Notes: generated from the letters alone by a model not told the origin. Counted from the first letter of the stretch, positions 17,296 to 47,223 are shown. The stretch is DNA of 64,000 nucleotides from a phage (GCA_027337125.1 GCA_027337125.1_3057.1); one strand, 5' to 3'. Translations and numbers: made by a program.

Positions 17296-18723
17296 GTGGT
17301 AGAAATTATTCTTTCTCATCTCATATTTGATCAAGCTTATTTTTCAAAAGTTTGGCCATATATGGATTCAGAATATTTTGAAAGTGGTCCAGCTAAAAAT
17401 ACATTCAAATTAATTAAATCTCATGTTAATGAGTACCATAGCGTTCCATCTATTAATGCGTTAAATGTTGCATTAGAAAATAGTTCATTTACTGAAACAG
17501 AATATTCTGGTGTAAAAACACTTATTTCGAAACTAGCCGATTCTCCAGAAGACCACAGCTGGTTAGTAAAAGAAACAGAAAAATATGTTCAGCAAAGGGC
17601 GATGTTTAATGCTACGTCTAAAATAATTGAAATTCAAACTAATGCTGAGCTTCCTCCGGAAAAACGAAATAAGAAAATGCCGGATGTTGGTGCTATTCCT
17701 GACATCATGCGCCAAGCATTATCAATTTCATTTGATAGTTACGTTGGCCATGATTGGATGGATGACTACGAAGCACGTTGGCTATCTTATATGAATAAAG
17801 CTCGTAAGGTTCCATTTAAACTCAAAATTCTAAATAAAATTACTAAAGGCGGAGCTGAGACTGGAACACTGAACGTTTTAATGGCTGGTGTTAACGTTGG
17901 TAAGTCATTAGGTCTATGTTCATTGGCAGCAGATTATTTACAACTCGGTCATAATGTTCTTTACATTTCAATGGAAATGGCAGAAGAAGTCTGTGCTAAA
18001 CGTATTGACGCTAATATGCTCGATGTTTCTCTTGATGACATTGATGATGGGCATATTTCTTATGCTGAGTATAAAGGAAAAATGGAAAAATGGCGTGAGA
18101 AATCTACTCTCGGCCGTTTAATCGTTAAACAGTATCCTACTGGCGGAGCAGACGCTAATACATTTAGATCGCTTTTAAACGAATTAAAGCTCAAGAAGAA
18201 TTTTGTTCCAACAATCATTATTGTTGACTATCTAGGTATTTGTAAATCTTGCCGCATCAGAGTTTACTCAGAAAATAGTTACACAACTGTTAAAGCTATC
18301 GCAGAGGAATTGCGTGCTCTGGCTGTTGAAACAGAAACTGTTCTTTGGACTGCAGCGCAGGTTGGTAAACAAGCTTGGGATTCTTCCGATGTTAACATGA
18401 GCGATATTGCAGAATCCGCCGGTCTTCCAGCAACAGCCGATTTTATGCTTGCGGTCATTGAAACCGAGGAGTTAGCAGCTGCTGAACAACAACTCATTAA
18501 GCAAATCAAATCACGATATGGTGATAAGAATAAATGGAATAAGTTTTTGATGGGTGTTCAAAAAGGAAATCAGAAATGGGTAGAAATTGAACAAGATTCT
18601 ACTCCAACTGAAGTGAACGAAGTAGCAGGTTCACAGCAGATTCAGGCTGAACAGAACCGCTATCAAAGAAACGAATCTACTCGAGCTCAGTTAGATGCTT
18701 TGGCGAATGAATTAAAATTTTAG
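17296..18723 (+). CDS. 41: gp41, replicative DnaB-like helicase
   Basis: 475 aa as in T4; Walker A GVNVGKS; GTG start. Confidence 0.95.
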   Translation: MVEIILSHLIFDQAYFSKVWPYMDSEYFESGPAKNTFKLIKSHVNEYHSVPSINALNVALENSSFTETEYSGVKTLISKLADSPEDHSWLVKETEKYVQQRAMFNATSKIIEIQTNAELPPEKRNKKMPDVGAIPDIMRQALSISFDSYVGHDWMDDYEARWLSYMNKARKVPFKLKILNKITKGGAETGTLNVLMAGVNVGKSLGLCSLAADYLQLGHNVLYISMEMAEEVCAKRIDANMLDVSLDDIDDGHISYAEYKGKMEKWREKSTLGRLIVKQYPTGGADANTFRSLLNELKLKKNFVPTIIIVDYLGICKSCRIRVYSENSYTTVKAIAEELRALAVETETVLWTAAQVGKQAWDSSDVNMSDIAESAGLPATADFMLAVIETEELAAAEQQLIKQIKSRYGDKNKWNKFLMGVQKGNQKWVEIEQDSTPTEVNEVAGSQQIQAEQNRYQRNESTRAQLDALANELKF

Positions 18724-18760
18724 TTTACAAGCTGACAAGACTATGGTATAGTAGTCTTGT
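18724..18760 (+). promoter_or_regulatory. early promoter (GTTTAC ... TATAGT) with its -10 inside a 9 bp perfect inverted repeat (ACAAGACTA / TAGTCTTGT)
   Basis: Read from sequence; 18 bp spacing; repeat arms at 18735-18743 and 18752-18760. Confidence 0.55.
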
Positions 18761-18781
18761 TGGTTAAATGAGGAGATCGTT

Positions 18782-18964
18782 ATGGAATTGGTAAAGGTAG
18801 TTTTTATGGGGTGGTTTAAGAATGAAAGCGTGTTTACTAAAGAAATCACAATGATGAAAGATGACGTTCAATGGGCTACTACTCAATATGCTGAAGTTAA
18901 TAAAGCATTAGTTAAAGCTTTCATTGATGACAAGAAAGTGTGTGAAGTGGATTGCAGAGGATAA
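18782..18964 (+). CDS. dmd: Dmd, inhibitor of RnlA/LsoA toxins
   Basis: 60 aa; sequence MELVKVVFMGWFKNES... matches recalled T4 Dmd almost exactly. Confidence 0.9.
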   Translation: MELVKVVFMGWFKNESVFTKEITMMKDDVQWATTQYAEVNKALVKAFIDDKKVCEVDCRG

Positions 18965-19208
18965 TATGCACATTGTTTTATTTAAACCTACTCCGTATAA
19001 TGTCAAGAAAAATACTCAATTCAAAGCACTTGTTGCAGATACGTGGGAATTGGTGTTAGATATTCCAGCAGAAGAAAGTCCTCCATTTGGTCGAGTGGAA
19101 TTTATTAAGTTTGCTGTGCGCCCTACGAAGCGACAGATTCGCCAATGCAAAAGATACTTTCGTAAAATCGTCAAGTTAGAGAAACAGTTATTGATGCTAG
19201 TAAAATAG
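18924..19208 (+). CDS. hypothetical small early protein (61.4-like position; possibly starts at ATG about 18966)
   Basis: ORF track; basic C-terminus; lies between dmd and sp. Confidence 0.5.
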   Translation: MMTRKCVKWIAEDNMHIVLFKPTPYNVKKNTQFKALVADTWELVLDIPAEESPPFGRVEFIKFAVRPTKRQIRQCKRYFRKIVKLEKQLLMLVK

Positions 19209-19210
19209 TA

Positions 19211-19252
19211 GTTTACAAGCTGATAGAGTTGTGTTATAGTAATTCTATCAGC
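19211..19252 (+). promoter_or_regulatory. early promoter (GTTTAC ... TATAGT) with its -10 inside a 9 bp perfect inverted repeat (GCTGATAGA / TCTATCAGC)
   Basis: Read from sequence; same -35/-10 as the 18724 promoter but different repeat arms. Confidence 0.55.
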
Positions 19253-19271
19253 TAATCGTGGAGAAAAGAAA

Positions 19272-19526
19272 ATGATGCTAGTTAATAGAGAATATCAGTT
19301 TAAATCAGAAGAAGATTTGGAAAAATTCGCGAGTGGTTGTGAACTGAATAGACGCACAGCTAAAGTCATAGGATTAAAACCCTTTACAGTTCTAGATTGT
19401 GAAGTTTCTAAATTCCGCAGAGGGTGTTCTATTAGCGGTCATGCTCTGGTTGATGGGAACACATTTTTCTTTGTTTTTAGCGTCAGAGAACTTTTATTGA
19501 TTAACGAACTTGAGGAAATAAAATAG
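19272..19526 (+). CDS. hypothetical small early protein (84 aa)
   Basis: ORF track; downstream of an early promoter. Confidence 0.5.
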   Translation: MMLVNREYQFKSEEDLEKFASGCELNRRTAKVIGLKPFTVLDCEVSKFRRGCSISGHALVDGNTFFFVFSVRELLLINELEEIK

Positions 19527-19583
19527 TTTACTTTTGTTGGAAATTGAGATACTATATAAACATAAACTACTGAGGAGATTATC

Positions 19584-19877
19584 ATGAAAAAATTTGTTTT
19601 TGCTGCAATTTTTGCTTTGGCTTCTTGTGCTGCTCAGCCTGCTATGGCGGGTTATGATAAAGATTTGTGCGAATGGTCTATGACTGCAGATCAGACTGAG
19701 GTTGAAACTCAGATTGAAGCAGATATTATGAATATCGTTGAACGTGATCGCCCTGAAATGAAAGCTGAAGTACAAAAACAGCTTAAGTCTGGTGGTGTAA
19801 TGCAGTATAATTACGTTCTGTATTGTGATAAAAACTTCAATAATAAAAATATCATCGCTGAAGTAGTAGGTGAATAA
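19584..19877 (+). CDS. sp: Sp (spackle), periplasmic superinfection-exclusion protein
   Basis: 97 aa with N-terminal signal peptide; matches recalled T4 Sp length and position. Confidence 0.8.
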   Translation: MKKFVFAAIFALASCAAQPAMAGYDKDLCEWSMTADQTEVETQIEADIMNIVERDRPEMKAEVQKQLKSGGVMQYNYVLYCDKNFNNKNIIAEVVGE

Positions 19878-19889
19878 TTAGAGGCTAAT

Positions 19890-20054
19890 ATGAAAACGTT
19901 TAAAGAATTTATCAAAGAAGATATGGTCGCTGGAGATTCAGGTGGTAATCCTGAAAATATCTCTACTGGAACAACGTCAGGCGCTGTAGTAAATAAAGGT
20001 CCTGAACAGATTCCTAAAAAGAAAAAAGAGGAATCTAAAGAAAAAGAAGAGTAA
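19890..20054 (+). CDS. small hydrophilic ORF (54 aa; 61.1-like position)
   Basis: Hand-derived ATG to TAA just before gene 61; below the track length cutoff. Confidence 0.35.
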   Translation: MKTFKEFIKEDMVAGDSGGNPENISTGTTSGAVVNKGPEQIPKKKKEESKEKEE

Positions 20055-20056
20055 AA

Positions 20057-21085
20057 ATGTCATCAATACCTTGGATTGATAATGAGTTTGCATATCGTGC
20101 GCTAGCTCATTTACCTAAATTCACACAAGTAAATAATAGTTCAACTTTTAAATTACGGTTTAGATGCCCTGTTTGTGGAGATTCAAAAACCGACCAAAAT
20201 AAAGCTCGTGGATGGTATTATGGCGATAATAATGAAGGAAATATTCATTGCTATAACTGTAACTATCATGCACCAATCGGAATATATTTAAAGGAGTTTG
20301 AACCCGATTTATATCGTGAGTATATCTTTGAAATAAGAAAAGAAAAAGGTAAAAGTCGTCCAGCAGAAAAACCTAAAGAACTTCCTAAACAACCTGAGAA
20401 GAAAATAATTAAATCTCTTCCGTCATGCATTAGATTGGATAAACTGGCGGAAGACCATCCAATTATAAAATACGTAAAAGCTCGATGTATTCCAAAGGAT
20501 AAATGGAAATATCTTTGGTTTACAACCGAATGGCCTAAATTAGTTAATAGTATAGCGCCAGGAACATATAAAAAGGAAATATCTGAGCCTCGTCTTGTTA
20601 TTCCAATTTATAATGCTAATGGAAAAGCTGAGTCTTTTCAAGGACGTGCATTAAAGAAAGATGCTCCTCAAAAATATATCACCATCAAAGCTTATCCTGA
20701 GGCAACAAAAATCTATGGAGTCGAACGGGTTAAAGATGGTGATGTATATGTTCTAGAAGGACCTATAGATTCTCTTTTTATTGAAAATGGTATAGCTATT
20801 ACGGGTGGTCAATTAGACCTAGAAATTGTTCCATTTAAAGATAGACGTGTATGGGTTTTAGATAATGAACCTCGTCACCCTGACACTATTAAACGAATGA
20901 CTAAATTAGTTGATGCAGGAGAAAGGGTTATGTTTTGGGATAAATCTCCCTGGAAATCAAAAGATGTCAATGATATGATTAGAAAGGAAGGTGCAACCCC
21001 TGAACAAATTATGGAATATATGAAAAATAATATTGCCCAAGGGTTGATGGCTAAAATGCGGCTATCTAAATATGCTAAGATTTAA
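20057..21085 (+). CDS. 61: gp61, DNA primase
   Basis: 342 aa; zinc ribbon CPVCGDS...CYNCNYH and TOPRIM-like EGPIDS; matches recalled T4 gp61. Confidence 0.95.
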   Translation: MSSIPWIDNEFAYRALAHLPKFTQVNNSSTFKLRFRCPVCGDSKTDQNKARGWYYGDNNEGNIHCYNCNYHAPIGIYLKEFEPDLYREYIFEIRKEKGKSRPAEKPKELPKQPEKKIIKSLPSCIRLDKLAEDHPIIKYVKARCIPKDKWKYLWFTTEWPKLVNSIAPGTYKKEISEPRLVIPIYNANGKAESFQGRALKKDAPQKYITIKAYPEATKIYGVERVKDGDVYVLEGPIDSLFIENGIAITGGQLDLEIVPFKDRRVWVLDNEPRHPDTIKRMTKLVDAGERVMFWDKSPWKSKDVNDMIRKEGATPEQIMEYMKNNIAQGLMAKMRLSKYAKI

Positions 21086-21282
21086 ATTAACCCAACTAAA
21101 GCAAATGCTAAATCTACGAATGTATCAAGAGTAATTACTGGAATACTAACGCCATGAGCAATAGCAACTGGCGATAAAACAAAATTCCAAAGTAAAATTC
21201 CTATCATAGCAGAAATAGTAAAAGCTATACGTTTTTTATTACCTTTGATGGCATTAACAAGTGCCATTAATTTTTGTACCAT
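21082..21282 (-). CDS. small hydrophobic protein encoded antisense to the early gene block (66 aa)
   Basis: ORF track; strong AGGAGG RBS upstream on the - strand; GATAAATA (near-late-promoter) motif further upstream. Confidence 0.45.
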   Translation of the reverse strand: MVQKLMALVNAIKGNKKRIAFTISAMIGILLWNFVLSPVAIAHGVSIPVITLDTFVDLAFALVGLI

Positions 21283-21330
21283 GCGTCGTCCTCCTTTAAA
21301 TTAATATTTATCGCAAATTTTACAAAATTT

Positions 21331-21360
21331 GTTTACTTTCTCAGCTTGTTATGGTATTAT
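21331..21360 (+). promoter_or_regulatory. early promoter (GTTTAC -35, TATTAT -10)
   Basis: T4 early promoter consensus, 18 bp spacing; precedes the 21386 ORF. Confidence 0.55.
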
Positions 21361-21385
21361 AAAATAAACTGCTGAGGATAATATA

Positions 21386-22725
<1,340 letters not shown>

Positions 22726-22785: not shown

Positions 22786-23304
22786 ATGGCATACTTTAAT
22801 GAATGTTCACAACTGATTGAAGGCGCTGATAAAGCTCAAAATGAATACTGGGATATTCTCGGTGATGAAAAAGACCCGCTGCAGGTTATGCTTGATATGC
22901 AGAAATCTTTACAGGTTCGTTTAGCTAAAGATAAACCTGAATATAACCGTCATCCTGATGATTTGGCTACTGCAGGTGAAGTTGTTGATTGGCTACGTAA
23001 TCAGAAAGATTATATTGACGATGAATTCCGCGAACTTCTGACTTCTCTTGGCGGTATGAGCAATGGTGAAAAAGATGCATCTGCTGTATGGAAGCCTTGG
23101 AAAGCTCAACATGGTGAACGCCGTGAAACTCTAATTACTGATTTGTCTCCACAAGACCAGTTGGAAATTAAATTCGAAATGATTGATATTCTTCATTTCG
23201 TTCTGAACATGTTCCAAGGTCTCGGCCTTACAGCTGAAGAAATCTTTAAACTTTATTATCTGAAAAATGCTGAAAACTTCGCGCGTCAAGACCGAGGTTA
23301 TTAA
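22786..23304 (+). CDS. 56: gp56, dCTPase/dUTPase (dCTP pyrophosphatase)
   Basis: Track ORF starts at 22771; ATG at 22786 after GGAAA RBS gives MAYFNEC..., similar to recalled T4 gp56. Confidence 0.85.
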   Translation: MAYFNECSQLIEGADKAQNEYWDILGDEKDPLQVMLDMQKSLQVRLAKDKPEYNRHPDDLATAGEVVDWLRNQKDYIDDEFRELLTSLGGMSNGEKDASAVWKPWKAQHGERRETLITDLSPQDQLEIKFEMIDILHFVLNMFQGLGLTAEEIFKLYYLKNAENFARQDRGY

Positions 23305-23348
23305 TGGCTCGTTTATTTAAACGACGACTTAAAAGCCGTGAGAATTAT

Positions 23349-23356
23349 TATAAATA
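23349..23356 (+). promoter_or_regulatory. late promoter TATAAATA for soc
   Basis: Exact gp55-type late promoter consensus about 30 bp upstream of the soc start. Confidence 0.7.
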
Positions 23357-23386
23357 ATCATGTAATTTAAATAAAAGGAGAATTAC

Positions 23387-23632
23387 ATGGCTAGTACTCG
23401 CGGTTATGTTAATATCAAAACGTTTGAGCAGAAATTAGATGGAAATAAGAAAATTGAAGGAAAGGAAATTTCTGTAGCTTTCCCTCTTTATTCTGACGTT
23501 CACAAAATTTCTGGCGCTCATTATCAGATATTCCCTTCAGAAAAAGCAGCATATACTACCGTATATGAAGAAAATCAACGTGCTGCGTGGATTGCTGCAA
23601 ACGAAGATTTGTGGAAAGTAACTGGTGAATAA
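23387..23632 (+). CDS. soc: Soc, small outer capsid protein
   Basis: 81 aa; MASTRGYVNIKTFEQKLDGNKKIEGKEISVAFPLYSDVHKISGAHYQ matches recalled T4 Soc. Confidence 0.9.
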   Translation: MASTRGYVNIKTFEQKLDGNKKIEGKEISVAFPLYSDVHKISGAHYQIFPSEKAAYTTVYEENQRAAWIAANEDLWKVTGE

Positions 23633-23637
23633 ATTCA

Positions 23638-23665
23638 GGGACTCCTTCGGGAGTCCTTTTTTCAT
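23638..23665 (+). terminator. intrinsic terminator (GGGACUCC-uucg-GGAGUCC plus T-run) after soc
   Basis: 8 bp stem, UUCG loop, TTTTTT tail. Confidence 0.7.
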
Positions 23666-23672
23666 TTTACCG

Positions 23673-23702
23673 GTTTACTTTCCACAATGAGTATGGTATA
23701 AT
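23673..23702 (+). promoter_or_regulatory. early promoter (GTTTAC -35, TATAAT -10)
   Basis: Consensus early promoter, 18 bp spacing. Confidence 0.55.
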
Positions 23703-23728
23703 AGAATTATCTTATAGAGGAGAGCACT

Positions 23729-23941
23729 ATGTTAAATCGTTGGATTAAACCAAATGAAGACCTCCAGAAGGTTCTTGATAAAGCTATCTCTGATAAATGG
23801 GGTATGAAAAGCTGGGATTGTGATATCGTCACGCATTCATTCATGATGCATACAGATGGTTCAGTCGAGTTCAATGCTGAAATGCGATACACTGACTGGG
23901 GTGGATTTCAAAGAGTCGAATTTCAAAGAGGCTTTTTGTAA
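23729..23941 (+). CDS. hypothetical protein (70 aa)
   Basis: ORF track; RBS GAGGAGAG upstream. Confidence 0.5.
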   Translation: MLNRWIKPNEDLQKVLDKAISDKWGMKSWDCDIVTHSFMMHTDGSVEFNAEMRYTDWGGFQRVEFQRGFL

Positions 23942-24282
23942 TGTTTATCTTTAATTGGTTTAAAAGTTTCTTTACGGATTTTTTCTCTACAACTCCCGGA
24001 GAAGGTGTAGTTCCTATTTCAAATGACTACCTTCCTTTAACTGTAGTTGAATATGTTTATATGGGAGATGGAACAGTAGAAGCAGTTACTATGACTTATG
24101 AAGAAGCCCAGGAATATTATAAAAATCCTTGGCGCTGGTCAACACCTACTACATCATCTAATACGCAGAATACACAGTCTAGTTCTGATTCATATGACAC
24201 TAATGTTCCTGTTCATGTATGGGCAGGCGATTCGTGTGGAAGTTCTTGTGATTCTAGTTGTTCATCTACATCTTGTGATTGA
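23941..24282 (+). CDS. hypothetical protein (113 aa) with Ser/Cys-rich C-terminus
   Basis: ORF track; C-terminal [15 protein letters not shown] tail. Confidence 0.5.
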
Positions 24283-24290
24283 GGAAAATT

Positions 24291-24776
24291 ATGGAAGCGA
24301 TTTTGTTTGAAATGTATATTAGCAGTGATAGCATGGCGTTTGCTAAAGATATTCCAATTACAGTAGCAGTAATGATTGATAAGGGTTATTGTGACCCAAT
24401 GTATCTCGTAGAAAATTTCGTTTCAATGCCAGTTCCAGAAGATGCTGAAATAAAGCTTAAAAAGATTGGTATCATTGAAACTGTACCAAATATTCCGTTT
24501 AGAGCAATTGAAGCATTTACTAAATCCGAATACATTAATGTTAGCGCAGAACAATATAATGATAAGCCTTTATCTTTTTATTCGTACGATTCACTATATA
24601 GCTGGAAAATAGATAAAGGAAATAAATTTATAATTGCAAGTGAAGATGCTTTATCATACTTTATTTCTTCTGTATGGAATAGTTTACATCCAAATTTGCT
24701 AAAAATTCATGAATTTGATGATGCTCCTACTGTTGTTTTAGGTAAAACAAATGAAAGTTCTGAAGAAAATGTTTGA
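24291..24776 (+). CDS. hypothetical protein (161 aa; size and position resemble T4 mrh)
   Basis: Track ORF 24279-24776; ATG at 24291 follows GAGGAAA RBS. Confidence 0.45.
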
Positions 24777-24954
24777 ATGGTTCAATAGACCAAACTCAAT
24801 GTACATTGACGATGGTTGGGTTGAACAGGCAAATAAAGAAATGCAGAACGAATCAGAAGAATGGATGAAATCAATGATTAGTGCCGAGAAAGAAAAGAAA
24901 TTAGAACGCTCAGCGCTTAAATTGATGAGAGACATCTATGGGGATAAATCATGA
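24751..24954 (+). CDS. hypothetical protein (67 aa)
   Basis: ORF track only. Confidence 0.4.
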
Positions 24955-25115
24955 ACAGAGATATGACGTTAGAAGAGGCCAAGGCTAAAGCAAATGAAGC
25001 ATTGGATTTGCTTCTTAAAATTGGCAGTAAAATGATGGAAGAAAATGAGAAATATATCCAGGAAAACAAAATTCCTGACGGTCCATTAGTAGGCAAGAGG
25101 AAATCATATGATTGA
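24951..25115 (+). CDS. hypothetical small protein (54 aa)
   Basis: Hand-derived; ATG overlaps upstream stop; stop overlaps next ORF start. Confidence 0.35.
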
Positions 25116-25578
25116 AGTAGCAAAACATTATTCAATAGAATTTATGTCCAAAGAAGGTAAATCAGTAAATACACTTGATAAAAAGTGCTCATTAATTATT
25201 CCTTTAGCAGAAAATCCGGATCTTTTAATTAAAGATATAAAAGAAAGAAAATATCCAGAAAATGTTATTCTAATTATAAAGCATACTGAAGATATTTTGC
25301 AGAATACTGATTCACCATTTTCTTCTTCTGAAGCTTTAACTATTAAAGGCTATAAAAGAGCTCGTGAATATGGTCTTTTTGACCTGTTTGAAGACGATAA
25401 AGTTAAATTAGCGAGTCAACCTTCTAAAAGTAAAACATTCATTATTGAAGATATTAAAGATATAAATGCATTTGTTAAGATGGTCTGGGCTCATTTTGAT
25501 GTTGGACTACGCTGGAGAATGTCCGAAGAAGAAAGAAAGATTATTGAAGCTAATCGTCAATTTGGTTTTTATCGCTAG
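25108..25578 (+). CDS. hypothetical protein (156 aa)
   Basis: ORF track only. Confidence 0.5.
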
Positions 25579-25586
25579 GAATTAGT

Positions 25587-25769
25587 ATGGATTTATTTGA
25601 GATGTTAGAAGATAATCATTCTACGAATATCCAGAATGATTCTAGTGATTATAAGAAAGAATACCGTATAGTATTACAGAATTATGGAATTGAAGCCCCA
25701 GATGCTCTTCTAGAAGAACTGGCTTCATACCATCTTGACCCTCCGCCTTGGGCTCCCTGGGCAAAATAA
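25587..25769 (+). CDS. hypothetical protein (60 aa)
   Basis: ORF track only. Confidence 0.4.
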   Translation: MDLFEMLEDNHSTNIQNDSSDYKKEYRIVLQNYGIEAPDALLEELASYHLDPPPWAPWAK

Positions 25770-25836: not shown

Positions 25837-26460
25837 ATGATTATTAATCTTGCAGATGTTGAACAGTTATCTATAAAAGCTGAAAGCGTTGATTTTCAAT
25901 ATGATATGTATAAAAAGGTCTGTGAAAAATTTACTGACTTTGAACAGTCAATTCTTTGGCAATGTATGGAAGCCAAAAAGAATGAAGCTCTTCATCGGCA
26001 GTTGAATAAAATCATTAAAAAGCATTTAACTAAATCACCTTATCAGCTATATCGTGGTATATCAAAATCGACAAAAGAACTCATTAAAGATTTACAAGTC
26101 GGAGAAGTGTTTTCAACGAACAGAGTAGATTCATTTACTACTAGTTTGCACACAGCGTGTTCTTTTTCTTATGCTGAATATTTTACTGAAACAATACTTC
26201 GCTTAAAAACTGATAAAGCTTTTAATTACTCTGACCATATCAGCGATATTATACTTTCTTCTCCTAATACTGAGTTTAAGTATACATATGAAGATACTGA
26301 TGGATTAGATTCAGAACGTACTGATAACTTAATGATGATTGTGCGTGAACAAGAATGGATGATTCCAATTGGAAAGTATAAAATAACTTCTATTTCAAAA
26401 GAAAAATTACATGATTCATTTGGAACATTTAAAGTGTATGATATTGAGGTAGTTGAATGA
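25837..26460 (+). CDS. modB: ModB, ADP-ribosyltransferase
   Basis: 207 aa; R-S-EXE ART motifs (LYRG, STN, EQEWMIP); order modB-modA-srd as in T4. Confidence 0.75.
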   Translation: MIINLADVEQLSIKAESVDFQYDMYKKVCEKFTDFEQSILWQCMEAKKNEALHRQLNKIIKKHLTKSPYQLYRGISKSTKELIKDLQVGEVFSTNRVDSFTTSLHTACSFSYAEYFTETILRLKTDKAFNYSDHISDIILSSPNTEFKYTYEDTDGLDSERTDNLMMIVREQEWMIPIGKYKITSISKEKLHDSFGTFKVYDIEVVE

Positions 26461-27059
26461 AATATTCAGCAATGCAATTAAAAGATTTTAAAATCAAATC
26501 AATGGATGCATCGGTGCGTGCTTCTATTCGTGAAGAATTACTTTCTGAAGGATTTAATTTATCTGAAATTGAACTTTTAATTCATTGTATTACTAATAAG
26601 CCAGACGATCATTCTTGGTTAAATGAAATAATCAAATCTCGTTTGGTTCCAAACGATAAACCTCTTTGGAGAGGTGTTCCAGTTGAGACTAAGCAGGTGT
26701 TAAATCAAGGAATTGATATTATTACATTTGATAAAGTAGTATCAGCTTCATATGATAAAAATATAGCTCTGCATTTTGCTTCTGGATTAGAATACAACAC
26801 GCAAGTTATTTTTGAATTCAAAGCTCCTATGGTATTTAATTTTCAGGAGTATGCTATAAAAGCTCTACGCTGTAAAGAATATAGTCCAAGTTTTAAGTTT
26901 CCGGATAGCCATCGCTATCGTAATATGGAATTAGTTTCAGATGAACAAGAAGTAATGATACCAGCTGGAAGTGTATTTAGAATTGCGGATAGATACGAGT
27001 ATAAAAAGTATTCAACATACACTATCTATACTCTTGACTTTGAAGGATTTAATCTATAA
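26457..27059 (+). CDS. modA: ModA, ADP-ribosyltransferase (modifies RNA polymerase alpha)
   Basis: 200 aa; ART motifs (LWRG, SAS, EQEVMIP). Confidence 0.75.
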   Translation: MKYSAMQLKDFKIKSMDASVRASIREELLSEGFNLSEIELLIHCITNKPDDHSWLNEIIKSRLVPNDKPLWRGVPVETKQVLNQGIDIITFDKVVSASYDKNIALHFASGLEYNTQVIFEFKAPMVFNFQEYAIKALRCKEYSPSFKFPDSHRYRNMELVSDEQEVMIPAGSVFRIADRYEYKKYSTYTIYTLDFEGFNL

Positions 27060-30799: not shown

Positions 30800-31300
30800 A
30801 TGAAAATTTATCGTGTTGAATCATCGTTTAGTATTCTTGATTATGAAGATGCTATAACAATACGTCGAAATCTTTGTGTTCAAATAACACCGTACAGGAG
30901 TATAATAGATTCATGGAGCGAAGAGTGGCTATTACACGTAGGTTATGACAGACCTAATTTTATGCATCATAGCGATAATAATAAAAGAATTCCTTTACCA
31001 CACGAAGATAAACTATTAGTTAAAAACGCTAATATAGTAATTAATACTAAGTTCAAGAAAGATTATGTTGGAGTAGAATATCATATTCCAGGATGGTTTA
31101 TAGCTCTTTATCATTTTGCTTTCGCTAGTGAATATGATATGATGAGATGGTTCACACGAGAAGAGCGGGAAGAATTATCTTCTAAAGGATTTTATCTCGC
31201 TGTATACGAAGTTCCTGAAGATGAAGTTATCATTGGCGGGCACCAAGTAATGTTCCGTAAATCCCATGCTGAACTCGTAGATTTTATTGAAATGAGATAA
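30800..31300 (+). CDS. hypothetical protein (166 aa)
   Basis: Track ORF 30761-31300; ATG at 30800 follows GAGGA RBS and the promoter. Confidence 0.5.
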   Translation: MKIYRVESSFSILDYEDAITIRRNLCVQITPYRSIIDSWSEEWLLHVGYDRPNFMHHSDNNKRIPLPHEDKLLVKNANIVINTKFKKDYVGVEYHIPGWFIALYHFAFASEYDMMRWFTREEREELSSKGFYLAVYEVPEDEVIIGGHQVMFRKSHAELVDFIEMR

Positions 31301-31302
31301 TT

Positions 31303-31845
31303 ATGAAATTTAATTATAATCCTGAATATACACCAAATCCGGTAGCTAAACTGATTGATTTTGATGTTGTAAGCACTTATGTATGCCCTGTTAAACCACT
31401 GGAAATTAAGGAATCTACTATGACTACCGCTATTGAAATCGGCAAAACCTACAAACTAGTTGAACCTGAAATTAAAACCAATGCCTTGATTTCCGGCTAT
31501 AAAACTTTGACTGATGTTTTTGGCGAAGGCGAATTTACTGTTGAAGACTTTGGAAAAAGTAAATGGTTTACTAAATCTTATATTGTCCACGGTCGTCGTT
31601 TAGACAATAACAAAATAGAGAAAATCCTGGTTTATGAAGCAGAGTTCATCCTGTTCCAAGAAGTTGAAGAACAAGACCCTACAGACCTTCTAACTCGTGC
31701 TATAGCTATCAAGACTCCATTTATTTCGGTCTGTGGTTGGGTAACAGACCAATGGATTGAAGATGGCGTTGAACTTCTGAACGTTGTTCATGCAGGTGAT
31801 TTTAGTGTAGTACCTCGTAGTGCGGTGGTAGCTATTTTGAATTAA
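31303..31845 (+). CDS. hypothetical protein (180 aa), paralog of the MotB-like ORF
   Basis: Shares C-terminal motif (C..TDQW-EDGV-L-N-V) with ORF 31922. Confidence 0.5.
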   Translation: MKFNYNPEYTPNPVAKLIDFDVVSTYVCPVKPLEIKESTMTTAIEIGKTYKLVEPEIKTNALISGYKTLTDVFGEGEFTVEDFGKSKWFTKSYIVHGRRLDNNKIEKILVYEAEFILFQEVEEQDPTDLLTRAIAIKTPFISVCGWVTDQWIEDGVELLNVVHAGDFSVVPRSAVVAILN

Positions 31846-31847
31846 TA

Positions 31848-31883
31848 GTTTACAAACTCTTGGGACCAGAGTATAATGGTCCC
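31848..31883 (+). promoter_or_regulatory. early promoter with its -10 (TATAAT) in the loop of a 7 bp inverted repeat (GGGACCA / TGGTCCC)
   Basis: Read from sequence; GTTTAC at 31848-31853, 18 bp spacing. Confidence 0.55.
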
Positions 31884-31921
31884 GCGGAGTATAAAATCTT
31901 TTTAACAAGTGAGAGATAACT

Positions 31922-33431: not shown

Positions 33432-33608
33432 ATGCCAATGTATGATTATAAATGCCAATCTGAAGACTGCGGGCATGAATATGAAAAAATTAAAAAGATT
33501 TCTGAACGAGAAAATGATGTTTGCCCTAAATGTCATCGTTTGTCTACTCGTCGGCCTTCTGCTCCTAAGCATGTGAATGGTGGTTTTTACGATTTACTTA
33601 AAGGGTGA
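33432..33608 (+). CDS. small zinc-ribbon protein (58 aa), FmdB-like CxxC...CxxC
   Basis: Hand-derived; MPMYDYKCQSEDCGHEYE...CPKCH resembles the FmdB-family zinc-ribbon signature. Confidence 0.4.
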   Translation: MPMYDYKCQSEDCGHEYEKIKKISERENDVCPKCHRLSTRRPSAPKHVNGGFYDLLKG

Positions 33609-33610
33609 TT

Positions 33611-33982
33611 ATGTTTAAAATCGGTAAGAAATATCGTGTTCGCGAAGGTGAAGAAAAGAAATATCTAATGTCTGCTATTTATAGGAATGGTTCTATTAAT
33701 GCTGTAATATCTACAAGCGAATTTATCGTTGAAGATATGAAAGGTCATAATGTTACAATGATTAGTACAGCATCTGGAAATGATGGAAAAATTCTTCACA
33801 GTATGCAGAGTAATGTTCTAATTTATGCTGAAGAATTTGACTTCTTCGAAGAAGTTTCCGAAAATTTTGATTTTGGATGCACTATCACTATGAAATCTGG
33901 CGACCCTCTTTCATTTACGGTTAAAGATGAAAGAAGTCGTTTGAGAATTATTAGTCTTCTTCAAGCCATTAAATTTGAGTGA
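33611..33982 (+). CDS. hypothetical protein (123 aa)
   Basis: Track ORF 33605-33982 starts at GTG; ATG at 33611. Confidence 0.5.
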   Translation: MFKIGKKYRVREGEEKKYLMSAIYRNGSINAVISTSEFIVEDMKGHNVTMISTASGNDGKILHSMQSNVLIYAEEFDFFEEVSENFDFGCTITMKSGDPLSFTVKDERSRLRIISLLQAIKFE

Positions 33983-41891: not shown

Positions 41892-42344
41892 ATGAAATAC
41901 ATGACTGTTACTGATCTGAATAATGCAGGTGCTACTGTTATTGGTACAATCAAGGGTGGTGAATGGTTTTTGGGAACTCCGCACAAAGATATTTTATCTA
42001 AACCTGGATTTTACTTTTTGGTAAGTGAATTCGATGGTTCATATGGTTCATGCGTATCTGCACGATTTTATGTAGGTAATCAGCGTTCTAAGCAAGGATT
42101 CAGTGCAGTTCTAAGTCATATTCGTCAACGCCGGTCTCAACTTGCACGTACTATTGCAAATAACAATATGGCATACACTGTATTTTATCTGCCTTCTTCT
42201 AAGATGAAACCTCTGACGACAGGATTTGGAAAAGGTCAGTTAGCTTTGGCGTTTACTCGTAATCATCATTCTGAGTATCAAACGCTTGAAGAAATGAACC
42301 GTATGTTGGCTGATAACTTTAAATTTGTTTTACAGGCATATTAA
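41892..42344 (+). CDS. ndd: Ndd, nucleoid disruption protein
   Basis: 150 aa; [33 protein letters not shown]... matches recalled T4 Ndd. Confidence 0.85.
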
Positions 42345-42424
42345 TGAGTAATTTCCACAACGAACACGTGATGCAGTTCTATCGTAATAATCTTAAAACT
42401 AAAGGCGTCTTCGGACGCCAGTGA
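42344..42424 (+). CDS. stp: Stp, 26-residue peptide that activates the host PrrC anticodon nuclease
   Basis: Hand-derived: [26 protein letters not shown] matches recalled T4 Stp; ATG overlaps ndd stop. Confidence 0.8.
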
Positions 42425-42431
42425 GGAAAAT

Positions 42432-42587
42432 ATGAAATTTGTTCACGGTATAGCCTTTTTCTGTTGGTTCTTTTTATGCATCGGAACAGTAATAACTGGA
42501 GAAACTTCAGTATTTTTGCAAGCATCAGCTCAGGGCGTATTAGCGATTTTATCATTATTCGCGTACATTGGTTCTAAAAATAGTTGA
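42432..42587 (+). CDS. Ac-like small membrane protein (51 aa)
   Basis: Hand-derived; hydrophobic; which of this and its paralog is ac is not resolved. Confidence 0.45.
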   Translation: MKFVHGIAFFCWFFLCIGTVITGETSVFLQASAQGVLAILSLFAYIGSKNS

Positions 42588-42597
42588 GGAGAATATT

Positions 42598-42756
42598 ATG
42601 AATATCGCAAAATTATTAGGAGTTATTTCATTTATTTGTTGGATAGTAGCATGTGTTTTAACTATCTGTATTGATGCCAGCAGTGTGTTTTCACAAGCTT
42701 TAGCCCAGGGTATGTGTGCATATTTAACATTTGTGTTGTTATCTACTAATGATTAA
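42598..42756 (+). CDS. Ac-like small membrane protein, paralog (52 aa)
   Basis: Track ORF 42568-42756; ATG at 42598 after GAGGAGAA RBS; shares S-VF-QA-AQG motif with ORF 42432. Confidence 0.45.
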   Translation: MNIAKLLGVISFICWIVACVLTICIDASSVFSQALAQGMCAYLTFVLLSTND

Positions 42757-45141: not shown

Positions 45142-45471
45142 ATGAACAAGTTAGAAATTGTCAATGAACTTCGTCGTTGTGCAGAACCTACTCAAGAGGG
45201 TTGGGACATCTGGTATCATGGAGCTTATCTTGGAACTATCGTAAAGATTAAGACTGGTAAATACATGATTATTCGTGAAAGTAAAGATGCTCCAGTAGGT
45301 ATTCGTAATAATTTTATGGCAGCGATAAGTTCCTTTACAGATGCAGCTTACGAAATTTATCTTGCTGATTATAAAGAATTCCAGGAATCTCAACCGGTTA
45401 TTCGCTCAATTGGTGTTAACAAAGCTCAACAGAAAACTTTGTGGCAACGTATTAAAGGATGGTTTAAATGA
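45142..45471 (+). CDS. hypothetical protein (109 aa)
   Basis: ORF track only. Confidence 0.5.
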
Positions 45472-45929
45472 AAACTTTTAAAGAACGTTTAGCTCTGTTA
45501 GATAAAGCTTTGTTACGTGAGACTCCGGAAAGTCTGGCTGCTAAATTAGCTTCTTACAGTGGTGAATATACAGAACAAAATGTTTTAGATGAAGTTCCTG
45601 AAATATGTTGGCAGACTGCGTATTGGGATGAAAACCAAAAGTATCAACGACGAATTGTCTGTGCAGCCAACCGTTTTAAATTAAAAGATGGACGAACTCT
45701 CGTTATTCCAGGTGCTCGTCATTATTCTAAAGATATGGCAGAAGTTTTAGATGTAGTTAAACCTCAATTAGTTACTCAACAAGTTTGTGATGATGACCAA
45801 GGGTTTATTGACCAATACAGTAATTATTGGACACGTGAAGAAGCAATGATTATTGCAACTTACGCTGGACAAGTACGTATTGAACGTGGTGGTAGTGAAA
45901 AAGAACTTTACTCTGAGGACCTTTACTAA
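45468..45929 (+). CDS. hypothetical protein (153 aa)
   Basis: ORF track; start overlaps upstream stop; no confident domain assignment. Confidence 0.5.
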
Positions 45930-46225
45930 TGAATATTAAAAAGTTTCAAATTGATGGAATTATGAATCAAATTCAGGCACTGGAATATGCCAATAAAATG
46001 ATGTCAACTAATTGGGGAATTTATGCCAATGAACCGGCATTTCAGTTCTGTAATATGGAATTCACCAAAAAGCTCGTAGGAAAAGATTATGTATGTCCAT
46101 TTAGTTCTCCAGTAAATGGAATGTTAAAACCTGCTTTACGAGATCTTTATATTGCGATGAACGAAGAAATGATAAAAGAACTAAAACGTCAACTGAAGGT
46201 GATTCAATTTGGCCAGGGAAATTAA
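45929..46225 (+). CDS. hypothetical protein (98 aa)
   Basis: ORF track only. Confidence 0.5.
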   Translation: MNIKKFQIDGIMNQIQALEYANKMMSTNWGIYANEPAFQFCNMEFTKKLVGKDYVCPFSSPVNGMLKPALRDLYIAMNEEMIKELKRQLKVIQFGQGN

Positions 46226-46427
46226 TTCAAAATCCGATTATTTTAATTCTCTCAATGATAAAGATAAAAATCTAATACGGCATTTTATTGTTGAGATGGG
46301 ATATACTGACACACGTGATTTAAGAGAACATATATTTGAATGTGGTGTAGCTAAAAAGTTTTCATTCACATGCAAATGTTTGAGAGAGGTAATTCAGCAC
46401 TATGAACAATTTAGTCGCAAAACATAA
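46209..46427 (+). CDS. hypothetical protein (72 aa)
   Basis: ORF track; overlaps upstream ORF end. Confidence 0.4.
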   Translation: MAREINSKSDYFNSLNDKDKNLIRHFIVEMGYTDTRDLREHIFECGVAKKFSFTCKCLREVIQHYEQFSRKT

Positions 46428-46510
46428 TTTTAATAAAGCTTCTGTCCATAAGGATAAAAAGAAAGCGTTTAAAGAATCTAATCGCAAACAGAAACATAAG
46501 GGGAAGGTCT

Positions 46511-46789
46511 ATGATTATTGATTCTCAGTCTGTGGTTCAATACACAATCAAAATTGATATTCTAGAAAAGCTATACAAGTTACTACCAAATTTATACCAC
46601 TCAATTGTTAATGAATTAGTTGAAGAACTACATCTCGAGAATAATGATTTCTTGGTTGGAACTTATAAAGACCTCTCAAAAGCAGGGTATTTTTACGTAA
46701 TTCCAGCTCCAGGAAAAAGTATTGATGATGTATTAAAAACTATAATGATTTACGTCCATGATTACGAAATTGAAGATTATTTCGAATGA
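46511..46789 (+). CDS. arn: Arn-like anti-restriction protein (inhibitor of McrBC in T4)
   Basis: 92 aa acidic protein immediately upstream of asiA, as T4 arn; assignment by size and synteny. Confidence 0.55.
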   Translation: MIIDSQSVVQYTIKIDILEKLYKLLPNLYHSIVNELVEELHLENNDFLVGTYKDLSKAGYFYVIPAPGKSIDDVLKTIMIYVHDYEIEDYFE

Positions 46790-46938
46790 GTCATAATCTT
46801 GAAAAGGTAATCGAGCATAATGTAGCTCAGGAACGTGAGTCGTTCAAGGAATTCGTAGAAAAAATTTTTGAAGAAAATAACACAGACCAGTTTACAAATC
46901 AAACGTCTGATGATATTATAACAAAGTCAACTAATTGA
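46786..46938 (+). CDS. small acidic ORF (50 aa)
   Basis: Hand-derived; ATG overlaps arn stop. Confidence 0.3.
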   Translation: MSHNLEKVIEHNVAQERESFKEFVEKIFEENNTDQFTNQTSDDIITKSTN

Positions 46939-46950
46939 GTGGTATAGTTA

Positions 46951-47223
46951 ATGAATAAAAACATTGATACAGTTCGTGAAATTATTACTGTTGCGTCTAT
47001 TTTGATTAAATTTTCCAGAGAAGATATTGTTGAAAATCGTGCTAATTTTATTGCATTTCTGAATGAGATTGGAGTAACGCATGAAGGTAGAAAATTAAAT
47101 CAGAATTCATTCCGTAAAATTGTTTCTGAATTAACTCAAGAAGATAAGAAAACCCTCATCGACGAATTCAACGAGGGTTTTGAGGGTGTATATCGATATC
47201 TAGAGATGTATACGAACAAATAA
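46951..47223 (+). CDS. asiA: AsiA, anti-sigma70 factor and MotA co-activator
   Basis: 90 aa; MNKNIDTVREIITVASILIKFSREDIVENRANFIAFLNEIG... matches recalled T4 AsiA. Confidence 0.9.
   Translation: MNKNIDTVREIITVASILIKFSREDIVENRANFIAFLNEIGVTHEGRKLNQNSFRKIVSELTQEDKKTLIDEFNEGFEGVYRYLEMYTNK

What the first reader, a model, noticed from the sequence alone, without database searches (positions are those of the whole stretch)
18782..19877. Anti-defence gene neighbourhoods contain unassigned small ORFs
Known host-defence countermeasures cluster here: dmd (anti-RnlA/LsoA) and sp at 18782-19877, stp and ac at 42344-42756, arn and asiA at 46511-47223, modB/modA at 25837-27059. Interleaved are unassigned small ORFs (18924-19208, 19272-19526, 45142-46427, 23729-25769). 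Anti-defence genes tend to cluster, so these neighbours are candidate inhibitors of toxin-antitoxin, restriction or other immunity systems; a ToxIN inhibitor (tifA) has been reported near dmd in T4.
Basis: inference. Interest (0 to 1): 0.4.

Follow-up and report, generated by a model that had tools for sequence, protein, structure and literature searches.

The report
T4 anti-toxin gene cluster, mostly known
This stretch of a T4-like phage genome is the already well-studied cluster of small early genes that disarm bacterial toxin-antitoxin defences; one "unassigned" gene is the known ToxN inhibitor TifA, a second is an uncharacterised miniature relative of the phage protein GoF, and the rest are named T4 genes whose functions are still unknown.

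Summary
The window is a Tequatrovirus (T4-like) genome.

The "unassigned" ORFs are less anonymous than claimed:
- 45142-46427 is arn.4 to arn.1.
- 23729-25769 is mrh.2, mrh.1, mrh, srh, modA.4, modA.3 and modA.2.
- Only 19272-19526 is absent from T4.

That ORF is a real gene (dN/dS 0.05-0.17). It has its own early promoter with a hairpin. It is a stand-alone copy of the GoF N-terminal small beta-barrel domain, found in about 14% of close relatives and always in the gene 41-61 gap near tifA or dmd. Its function is untested.

The anti-DarT gene adfA is missing from this phage.

One new lead: the swappable first 31 residues of Arn.3 match the CmdA antitoxin profile of the CmdTAC defence system (E about 1e-8). 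However, a BASEL phage with nearly this allele is reported CmdTAC-sensitive.

Overall: ordinary, largely known locus, with two modest untested leads.

The parts
18721..18774 (+). Early promoter with overlapping hairpin (PeSL-like unit 1) upstream of dmd-tifA
   Evidence: TTTACA-N17-TATAGT with TG, 10/12 match, at 18724-18752. Hairpin of 15 bp, -18.9 kcal/mol, z -4.7. T4 dmd-61.4 is driven by one early promoter (PMC9391042).
18782..18964 (+). dmd, antitoxin-like inhibitor of RnlA/LsoA (60 aa)
   Evidence: 98% identical to T4 Dmd. Pfam PF17587 E 1.3e-45.
18966..19208 (+). tifA (T4 61.4), RNA-binding inhibitor of the ToxN endoribonuclease; 80 aa, with a C-terminal tail that differs from T4
   Evidence: 95% identical to T4 gp61.4 over aa 1-76. 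PF23945 DUF7279 E 5.7e-20. F41, P53-T54 and K55/R56/R59 are present by direct reading, the residues discussed in PMC10853763. The tail is QLLMLVK here and QFVTCDYAEILK in T4.
19209..19262 (+). Second early promoter with overlapping hairpin (PeSL-like unit 2), heading the extra gene
   Evidence: TTTACA-N17-TATAGT with TG at 19212-19240. 14-bp hairpin, -18 kcal/mol, z -4.3. 64-nt direct repeat, 70% identical to the dmd promoter region (D1).
19272..19526 (+). Accessory gene absent from T4: 84-aa stand-alone homologue of the GoF N-terminal small beta-barrel domain
   Evidence: phrog_2980 E 3e-20. BLASTP to the window's GoF 37% over 41 aa, E 2e-8. Aligns over GoF aa 1-93. AF2 pLDDT 78. Foldseek hit to T4 MotB.1. 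dN/dS 0.05-0.17. Present in 84 phage records.
19190..19527 (+). Replacement relative to T4: about 0.34 kb here (new tifA tail, promoter/hairpin, extra gene) where T4 has about 36 bp
   Evidence: Pairwise alignment with T4. The right junction lies at AAAATA/GTTTAC, just before the sp upstream region, which is identical in T4.
19584..19877 (+). sp (spackle), periplasmic superinfection-exclusion protein
   Evidence: 97% identical to T4 Sp. PF25676 E 4.8e-45.
19878..19889 (+). Direct sp-to-61.1 junction: the slot that holds adfA (61.2, anti-DarT) in T4 is empty
   Evidence: No tblastn match for T4 gp61.2 in the window. adfA is present in relative P8 and absent in EP01. The contiguous junction occurs in 50 of 487 records.
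19890..20054 (+). 61.1, conserved 54-aa ORF of unknown function
   Evidence: 98% identical to T4 gp61.1. phrog_1823 E 7e-34.
45142..46427 (+). arn.4, arn.3, arn.2, arn.1: four named T4 ORFs of unknown function upstream of arn
   Evidence: 100%, 82%, 97% and 100% identical to T4. No Pfam or NCBIfam family. Described as unknown in bioRxiv 10.64898/2026.06.19.733364.
45468..45593 (+). Hypervariable N-terminal module of Arn.3 resembling the N-terminus of the CmdA antitoxin
   Evidence: PADLOC PD-T4-9_B E 2.7e-8 for the whole protein and 5.4e-9 for aa 1-40, profile positions 1-31 of 77. aa 1-42 are about 40% identical to T4, while aa 43-153 are about 98% identical.
23729..25769 (+). mrh.2, mrh.1, mrh, srh, modA.4, modA.3, modA.2: seven named T4 early genes
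   Evidence: 56-100% identical to T4. mrh.1 is DUF7206 and modA.3 is in the T4_MRH family.
42344..42756 (+). stp (42344-42424), an extra ac-like paralogue (42432-42587) and ac (42598-42756)
   Evidence: stp 100%, ac 96%, paralogue 42% to T4 Ac.
46511..47223 (+). arn (McrBC inhibitor), asiA.1 and asiA (anti-sigma-70)
   Evidence: 96%, 96% and 100% identical to T4.
25837..27059 (+). modB and modA ADP-ribosyltransferases
   Evidence: 98% and 97.5% identical to T4.

Best explanation
The flagged locus is the hyperplastic region between genes 41 and 61 of a T-even phage. It is built from early-promoter cassettes that encode very small proteins made in the first minutes of infection.

Cassette 1 (promoter/hairpin, dmd, tifA) encodes two decoy antitoxins. 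Dmd binds and blocks the RnlA/LsoA RNase toxins. TifA binds the ToxN RNase together with RNA through its Pro-Thr-capped basic helix. Both mechanisms were shown for the T4 orthologues. They are inferred here from 95-98% identity and intact motifs.

Cassette 2 (promoter/hairpin, 84-aa gene) is an accessory insertion carried by a minority of relatives. Its product is a free-standing copy of the N-terminal small beta-barrel (SH3/LSm-like) domain of GoF, a T4 protein genetically tied to mRNA stability. The most likely mechanism (inferred, not shown) is that it binds RNA, or a host RNA-handling protein, early in infection and alters transcript fate. Whether that counters a defence system is open.

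The third unit (sp, 61.1, gene 61) has lost or never had adfA, so this phage lacks the AdfA layer of anti-DarT protection.

The other 'neighbourhoods' are ordinary T4 early or middle gene blocks (arn.1-4; mrh/srh/modA.2-4) with names but, mostly, no known function.
For: - Identity of the genes.
- tifA is 61.4 and inhibits ToxN: PMC9391042. The PT motif and basic helix bind RNA, and F41 is the weaker allele: PMC10853763. These residues are present here.
- Two promoter-plus-hairpin units. They match the PeSL description for T4-type phages, TTTACW-N17-TAYWAT with a stem-loop (PMC4122927).
- The indel relative to T4 is mapped.
- The extra gene is real: dN/dS 0.165 at dS 0.57.
- Recurrent placement next to tifA or dmd in Tequatrovirus, Gaprivervirus and an uncultured lineage.
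- adfA absence.
Against: - No experiment exists for this phage's alleles.
- The TifA tail differs from T4. Its effect is unknown, although RB69 TifA lacks the extension and is more potent.
- For the 84-aa gene the RNA-related mechanism rests on homology to a family whose wild-type function is itself unknown. Wild-type GoF and MotB.1 had little effect in reporter assays.
- The protein is near neutral in charge, by my count from the sequence, unlike the basic TifA.
- The structure model is of only moderate confidence, and GoF sequences were in its alignment.
Confidence: 0.8

Rival explanations
1. The 84-aa gene (19272-19526) is a dedicated inhibitor of a host defence, most plausibly an RNase-type toxin or abortive-infection effector. 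It would act as a decoy antitoxin, like its neighbours Dmd and TifA.
For: - It is always found within a gene or two of tifA or dmd in the gene 41-61 gap, in three lineages and in different gene orders. That suggests an independently mobile cassette kept in the anti-toxin island.
- Patchy distribution typical of counter-defence genes: 71 of about 500 close relatives.
- Early promoter and strong purifying selection.
Against: - No similarity to any PADLOC defence component or to any solved antitoxin by sequence.
- The exhaustive profile search found no bacterial relatives.
- Co-location is the only argument.
Confidence: 0.25
2. The 84-aa gene is a passenger with no benefit to the phage. It would be carried only because promoter/hairpin cassettes recombine easily.
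For: - It is flanked by repeated promoter sequences.
- It is absent from most relatives, including T4, without obvious cost.
Against: - dN/dS is far below 1 across lineages that are 55-80% identical in protein. Length and four invariant Cys/His positions are preserved.
Confidence: 0.1
3. Arn.3 (45468-45929) is a modular decoy antitoxin. Its exchangeable N-terminal two-helix module would copy the toxin-contacting N-terminus of CmdA and neutralise CmdT-type mRNA ADP-ribosyltransferases without needing the SecB-like chaperone.
For: - PADLOC PD-T4-9_B (second gene of CmdTAC, i.e. CmdA; PMC9519451) matches aa 1-31 at E 2.7e-8 to 5.4e-9.
- CmdA is described as two N-terminal helices plus a disordered tail.
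- The N-terminal 42 aa of Arn.3 are about 40% identical between this phage and T4, while the rest is about 98% identical. Several allele classes exist across 839 records.
- Both BASEL phages that escape CmdTAC (Bas35, Bas38) carry 'MKTF' alleles. Nine T4-type phages are sensitive.
Against: - Bas36 carries this window's allele (one substitution) and is not among the reported escapers. So this allele is not sufficient against CmdTAC of ECOR22.
- The association (2/2 against 1/10, Fisher about 0.045) is small and confounded by relatedness.
- No actual CmdA sequence could be retrieved for a direct alignment.
- The same module lies inside an unrelated 320-aa Klebsiella phage protein, so it may be a generic helical adaptor.
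- Published T4 escapers map to alt.-3, not arn.3.
Confidence: 0.15

Closest known systems
T4 dmd-tifA(61.4)-sp-adfA(61.2)-61.1 locus between genes 41 and 61
   Same: Same genes in the same order and orientation, 95-99% identical. Same early promoter before dmd. tifA starts two bases after the dmd stop.
   Different: An extra promoter/hairpin plus an 84-aa gene lies between tifA and sp. The TifA C-terminal tail is replaced (80 aa against 85 aa). adfA is missing. The arrangement matches RB3/RB5-RB10 and phage EP01 rather than T4.
GoF / MotB.1 / Frd.2 family of Tevenvirinae 'LSm-like fold' proteins (Kim et al. 2025, PMC12152347)
   Same: The 84-aa protein aligns along the whole GoF N-terminal domain with 14 invariant positions. 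Its model matches T4 MotB.1 and SH3-like barrels such as FeoA and IdeR, as reported for GoF.
   Different: It has no linker or C-terminal domain. It carries four clade-specific invariant residues (C23, C43, C52, H57) that GoF lacks. It sits in the anti-toxin island rather than next to gene 39. The family's wild-type function is unknown, so this gives a fold, not a mechanism.
PeSL (promoter-early stem-loop) cassettes of T4-type phages (Arbiol 2010, PMC2839356; Comeau 2014, PMC4122927)
   Same: An early promoter TTTACA-N17-TATAGT overlapped by a stable hairpin marks an indel between close relatives in a hyperplastic region.
   Different: Recombination at these sites is inferred from comparison with T4, not observed. 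The left junction lies inside the tifA coding end rather than exactly at a promoter.
CmdA antitoxin of the CmdTAC toxin-antitoxin-chaperone defence (PD-T4-9)
   Same: The first ~31 residues of Arn.3 match the first 31 positions of the CmdA profile.
   Different: Arn.3 has a conserved folded-looking 110-aa C-terminal part instead of a disordered chaperone-addiction tail. It has no neighbouring toxin or SecB-like gene. The match is short.

Membership tests
TifA (ToxN inhibitory factor A, T4 gp61.4 / Pfam DUF7279) | Sequence homology to T4 gp61.4 | tested here: met
   95% identity over aa 1-76. PF23945 E 5.7e-20, 71 bits against a cut-off of 24.5.
TifA (ToxN inhibitory factor A, T4 gp61.4 / Pfam DUF7279) | Located directly downstream of dmd in the same early transcription unit | tested here: met
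   The ATG at 18966 follows the dmd stop at 18962-18964. A single promoter lies at 18724-18752.
TifA (ToxN inhibitory factor A, T4 gp61.4 / Pfam DUF7279) | Pro-Thr cap followed by a basic C-terminal helix that binds RNA | tested here: met
   P53 T54 K55 R56 R59 are present by direct reading. The motif is defined in PMC10853763.
TifA (ToxN inhibitory factor A, T4 gp61.4 / Pfam DUF7279) | Binds and neutralises ToxN | not testable with these tools
   Needs co-expression or pull-down. The altered C-terminal tail makes this worth checking.
GoF/MotB.1/Frd.2 LSm-like fold family (for ORF 19272-19526) | Sequence homology to the GoF N-terminal domain | tested here: met
   BLASTP E 2e-8. Reciprocal PHROG cross-hits between phrog_2980 and phrog_622. 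Full-length alignment.
GoF/MotB.1/Frd.2 LSm-like fold family (for ORF 19272-19526) | Bent five-stranded antiparallel beta-sheet (SH3/LSm-like barrel) | tested here: inconclusive
GoF/MotB.1/Frd.2 LSm-like fold family (for ORF 19272-19526) | N-terminal domain joined by a linker to a C-terminal domain | tested here: not met
   The protein ends at residue 84, the end of the N-terminal domain. It is a stand-alone domain.
GoF/MotB.1/Frd.2 LSm-like fold family (for ORF 19272-19526) | Effect on RNA stability or RNA binding | not testable with these tools
   Shown only for the GoF(D25Y) mutant in the literature.
PeSL mobile regulatory cassette | Early promoter TTTACW-N17-TAYWAT | tested here: met
   TTTACA-N17-TATAGT with TG at 19212-19240 and at 18724-18752.
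PeSL mobile regulatory cassette | Stable stem-loop overlapping the promoter | tested here: met
   -18.0 and -18.9 kcal/mol, z -4.3 and -4.7, 0 of 200 shuffles as stable.
PeSL mobile regulatory cassette | Marks an indel between closely related phages | tested here: met
   The gene is present here and in 71 close relatives, and absent in T4 and most others.
AdfA (anti-DarT factor A, T4 gp61.2) | A homologue present between sp and 61.1 | tested here: not met
   No tblastn match in the window. There are 12 bases between the sp stop and the 61.1 start.
CmdA-like antitoxin (for Arn.3) | Homology to CmdA over its toxin-neutralising N-terminus | tested here: inconclusive
   The profile match covers 31 residues at E about 1e-8. 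No real CmdA sequence was obtained for a direct alignment.
CmdA-like antitoxin (for Arn.3) | Disordered C-terminal chaperone-addiction tail and adjacent toxin and SecB-like genes | tested here: not met
   Arn.3 has a conserved 110-aa C-terminal part. Its neighbours are arn.4 and arn.2.
CmdA-like antitoxin (for Arn.3) | Presence of the allele predicts escape from CmdTAC | tested here: not met
   Bas36 has this allele (one substitution) yet is not among the two reported escapers.

The most novel reading that the evidence does not exclude
Two of the neighbours could be new counter-defence proteins.

(1) Arn.3 would be a modular decoy antitoxin. Its rapidly exchanged N-terminal two-helix module copies the CmdA antitoxin and targets particular variants of the CmdT mRNA ADP-ribosyltransferase. 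Allele diversity in T-even phages would then mirror the known diversity of CmdA sequences.

(2) The 84-aa GoF-domain protein would be a further inhibitor of an RNase-type toxin, housed in the dmd-tifA-adfA island.
Probability: 0.2. Interest if true: 0.65.

Novelty: new member of a known kind. Interest (0 to 1): 0.35.

Why it matters
The practical value is mainly in cleaning up the claim.
- The locus is a textbook anti-toxin island, and one "candidate" is the known inhibitor TifA.
- The phage lacks AdfA, which predicts one fewer layer of protection against DarTG-type defence.
- Its TifA has the weak F41 allele with an unusual tail.

Two inexpensive experiments follow. If the 84-aa GoF-domain gene proved to be a counter-defence factor, it would give the first function for the GoF/MotB.1/Frd.2 family. 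If the Arn.3 module proved to be an antitoxin mimic, it would show phages borrowing the variable part of a chaperone-dependent antitoxin.

Tried and rejected
- Word-index protein search with the 84-aa ORF found only 5 near-identical proteins.
- The exhaustive profile search added one real cluster. The other hits were C2H2 zinc-finger repeat proteins, matched through a chance 'KPF..L.CE.SF' resemblance, and were rejected.
- The IMG/VR scan gave one locus.
- Pfam, NCBIfam, PADLOC and PDB sequence searches were empty for the 84-aa ORF, TifA beyond DUF7279, 61.1, arn.1/2/4, mrh.2 and modA.2/.4.
- The first structure model, from a 4-sequence alignment, was too poor to use (pLDDT 61).
- Attempts to obtain a real CmdA sequence all failed:
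  - blastn of E. coli complete genomes
  - word-index search (two fragments only)
  - species-representative genome scan with ETPESL[AV][AE]K (none confirmed)
  - plasmid tblastn
  - the supplement of PMC11618068
- The prediction that the window's Arn.3 allele marks CmdTAC escapers was tested and failed for Bas36.
- A weak PADLOC hit of arn.4 to a type II restriction enzyme model (E 0.003) was disregarded as noise. So was a tblastn hit to a mycobacteriophage VIP2-like toxin (E 6).

Full report
**What the window is.** A megablast of 17500-21500 finds 609 phage records. Of these, 486 are 95-99% identical, and almost all are Escherichia or Shigella Tequatrovirus. The window runs antiparallel to the T4 reference. 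I extracted T4 proteins from three stretches of NC_000866 and mapped them to the window by tblastn.

**Checking the observation.**
- dmd 18782-18964 (98%)
- sp 19584-19877 (97%)
- stp 42344-42424 (100%)
- ac 42598-42756 (96%)
- arn 46511-46789 (96%)
- asiA 46951-47223 (100%)
- modB 25837-26460 (98%)
- modA 26457-27059 (97.5%)

Pfam independently recognises Dmd and Spackle.

The ORFs called "unassigned" are a different matter.
- ORF 18924-19208 is T4 gene 61.4. It is 95% identical over residues 1-76 and matches Pfam DUF7279 (E 6e-20). Its real start is the ATG at 18966, two bases after the dmd stop and behind a GAGGA ribosome site.
- Gene 61.4 was renamed tifA when it was shown to inhibit ToxN (PMC9391042).
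- The 2-kb stretch 23729-25769 is mrh.2, mrh.1, mrh, srh, modA.4, modA.3 and modA.2.
- These genes have names but mostly no function. There are no Pfam or NCBIfam assignments beyond DUF7206 and T4_MRH. A 2026 preprint still calls arn.1-4 unknown.
- Only 19272-19526 lacks a T4 counterpart.

**Anatomy of the main locus.** Two sigma-70-type early promoters score 10/12 with an extended TG. Both read TTTACA-N17-TATAGT, at 18724-18752 and 19212-19240.
- Each is overlapped by a 14-15 bp hairpin (-18.9 and -18.0 kcal/mol; z -4.7 and -4.3; no shuffle as stable).
- The two 64-nt regions are 70% identical direct repeats.
- This is the composite promoter/stem-loop (PeSL) described for hyperplastic regions of T4-type phages (PMC4122927).
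- Alignment with T4 shows that about 0.34 kb here replaces about 36 bp of T4. The replacement comprises a new TifA tail, the second promoter/hairpin and the 84-aa gene. The right junction is at AAAATA/GTTTAC.
- Phages carrying the insertion have shortened TifA tails...KLEK* or ...KLEKQLLM(L/I)VK*, against T4 ...KLEKQFVTCDYAEILK*.
- Between sp and 61.1 there are only 12 bases. T4's adfA (61.2, anti-DarT) is absent.
- That direct junction occurs in 50 of 487 related records, including RB3 and RB5-RB10. adfA itself is found in 487 records.
- One metagenomic relative (L007) fills the slot with a 118-aa homologue of the AdfA C-terminal half (PF23813, 30.4 bits).

**TifA allele.** The product keeps F41 and the P53-T54 cap. 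It also keeps the basic residues K55, R56 and R59. The NAR study tied these features to ToxN interaction and RNA binding, F41 being the weaker natural variant (PMC10853763). By inference it is a functional ToxN inhibitor of T4-like strength. The changed tail is untested.

**The 84-aa gene.**
- It is a real gene. Homologues 55-81% identical in protein keep their length, and dN/dS is 0.165 at an unsaturated dS of 0.57, lower elsewhere.
- It occurs in 84 of 50,697 phage records. Of these, 71 are at least 95% identical (about 14% of close relatives) and 13 are Gaprivervirus-type at 57%.
- An exhaustive profile search of 1.8 billion representatives found only one further genuine cluster.
- It always sits in the gene 41-61 gap. 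In Tequatrovirus it follows tifA. In SP18 it follows gene 41 directly, three genes before dmd. In an uncultured lineage it precedes a TifA homologue.
- By sequence it is a free-standing GoF N-terminal domain. It matches phrog_2980 (E 3e-20), which the window's own GoF also hits over residues 11-91. BLASTP to GoF gives E 2e-8. The alignment spans GoF residues 1-93 with 14 invariant columns.
- That family has no established wild-type function. Only the GoF(D25Y) mutant stabilises gene 41 mRNA.
- The mechanism I favour is binding of RNA or of an RNA-handling host protein early in infection. This is an inference.

**A lead in the arn block.**
- In a PADLOC scan, the first 31 residues of Arn.3 (45468-45929) matched PD-T4-9_B at E 2.7e-8, and at 5.4e-9 for residues 1-40 alone.
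- PD-T4-9 is CmdTAC. Its second gene is the antitoxin CmdA, described as two N-terminal helices plus a disordered chaperone-addiction tail (PMC9519451, PMC11618068).
- Against T4, Arn.3 is about 40% identical in residues 1-42 and about 98% identical afterwards. T4's allele scores only 16-18 bits.
- Across 839 phage records the module falls into several identity classes.
- The same 35-residue module (69% identical) lies inside an unrelated 320-aa Klebsiella Jedunavirus protein.

I tested one prediction of this lead. CmdTAC restricts all BASEL Tevenvirinae except Bas35 and Bas38.
- Both escapers carry "MKTF.ERL" alleles.
- T4 and Bas37 and Bas39-45 carry the T4 type.
- However, Bas36 carries this window's allele with one substitution and is not an escaper.
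- So the allele is not sufficient. The remaining association (2/2 against 1/10, Fisher about 0.045) is small and confounded by relatedness.
- I could not retrieve a true CmdA sequence for a direct alignment.

This remains a lead, not a finding.

**Verdict.** The coordinates are right. The label "unassigned" is wrong for tifA and loose for the other blocks. Several listed genes (sp, ac, asiA, modA/B) are not defence inhibitors in the strict sense, by established knowledge of T4. The locus is a known kind of structure with one additional family member of unknown function.

Noticed in passing
window 19878-19889 (sp to 61.1 junction): adfA (T4 61.2, anti-DarT factor A) is absent. Only 50 of 487 related records share this direct junction. 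Another relative (L007:4617-4973) has a 118-aa homologue of the AdfA C-terminal half in the slot.
   Followed up: yes
window 45468-45593 (Arn.3 N-terminus): A hypervariable 31-42 residue module matches the CmdA antitoxin profile of CmdTAC (E about 1e-8). The rest of Arn.3 is about 98% identical to T4. The allele also occurs in Bas36, which is not reported to escape CmdTAC.
   Followed up: yes
window 33605-33982: An extra 125-aa ORF lies between 39.2 and 39.1 and is not annotated in T4. It is a weak match to the GoF N-terminal domain profile (E 0.0015) and has a GoF-like C-terminal end. It is probably another GoF paralogue, two genes from goF.
   Followed up: partly
window 42432-42587: A 51-aa membrane-type ORF between stp and ac is a diverged tandem paralogue of Ac (42% identical over 40 aa). 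T4 and the BASEL phages examined show a single ac gene there.
   Followed up: partly
window 19272-19526: Four residues (C23, C43, C52, H57) are invariant in all members of the 84-aa clade, and all differ in GoF. They may form a metal site. The spatial arrangement could not be checked.
   Followed up: partly
whole window: T4 genes b-gt, segA, segF, mobA and 60.1 have no match. The gap between gene 42 (ends 14839) and uvsX (starts 15768) must hold something other than beta-glucosyltransferase.
   Followed up: no
window 22786-23938: A diverged patch in an otherwise 95-100% T4-like stretch: gene 56 is only 74% identical to T4 and mrh.2 only 56%.
   Followed up: no
window 31295-31921: The motB.1 region is rearranged. 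Only residues 65-115 of T4 MotB.1 match (47%), and a fragment resembling MotB residues 120-151 lies next to it.
   Followed up: no
window 46402-46521: A 39-aa highly basic ORF spans the arn.1/arn intergenic region. It overlaps the ends of both genes and is not annotated in T4.
   Followed up: no
L013:14841-14996 (Bas35, MZ501113): Bas35, one of the two CmdTAC escapers, has an extra 51-aa ORF between arn.3 and arn.4 that the other BASEL phages examined lack.
   Followed up: no
L009:3179-3940 and L008:3179-3940: In an uncultured T4-like lineage, a 253-aa ORF with a weak GIY-YIG match (E 3e-4) sits directly after gene 41. In T4 that position holds dmd. It is followed by the 84-aa gene homologue and a TifA homologue. 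No dmd was seen in the called genes.
   Followed up: no
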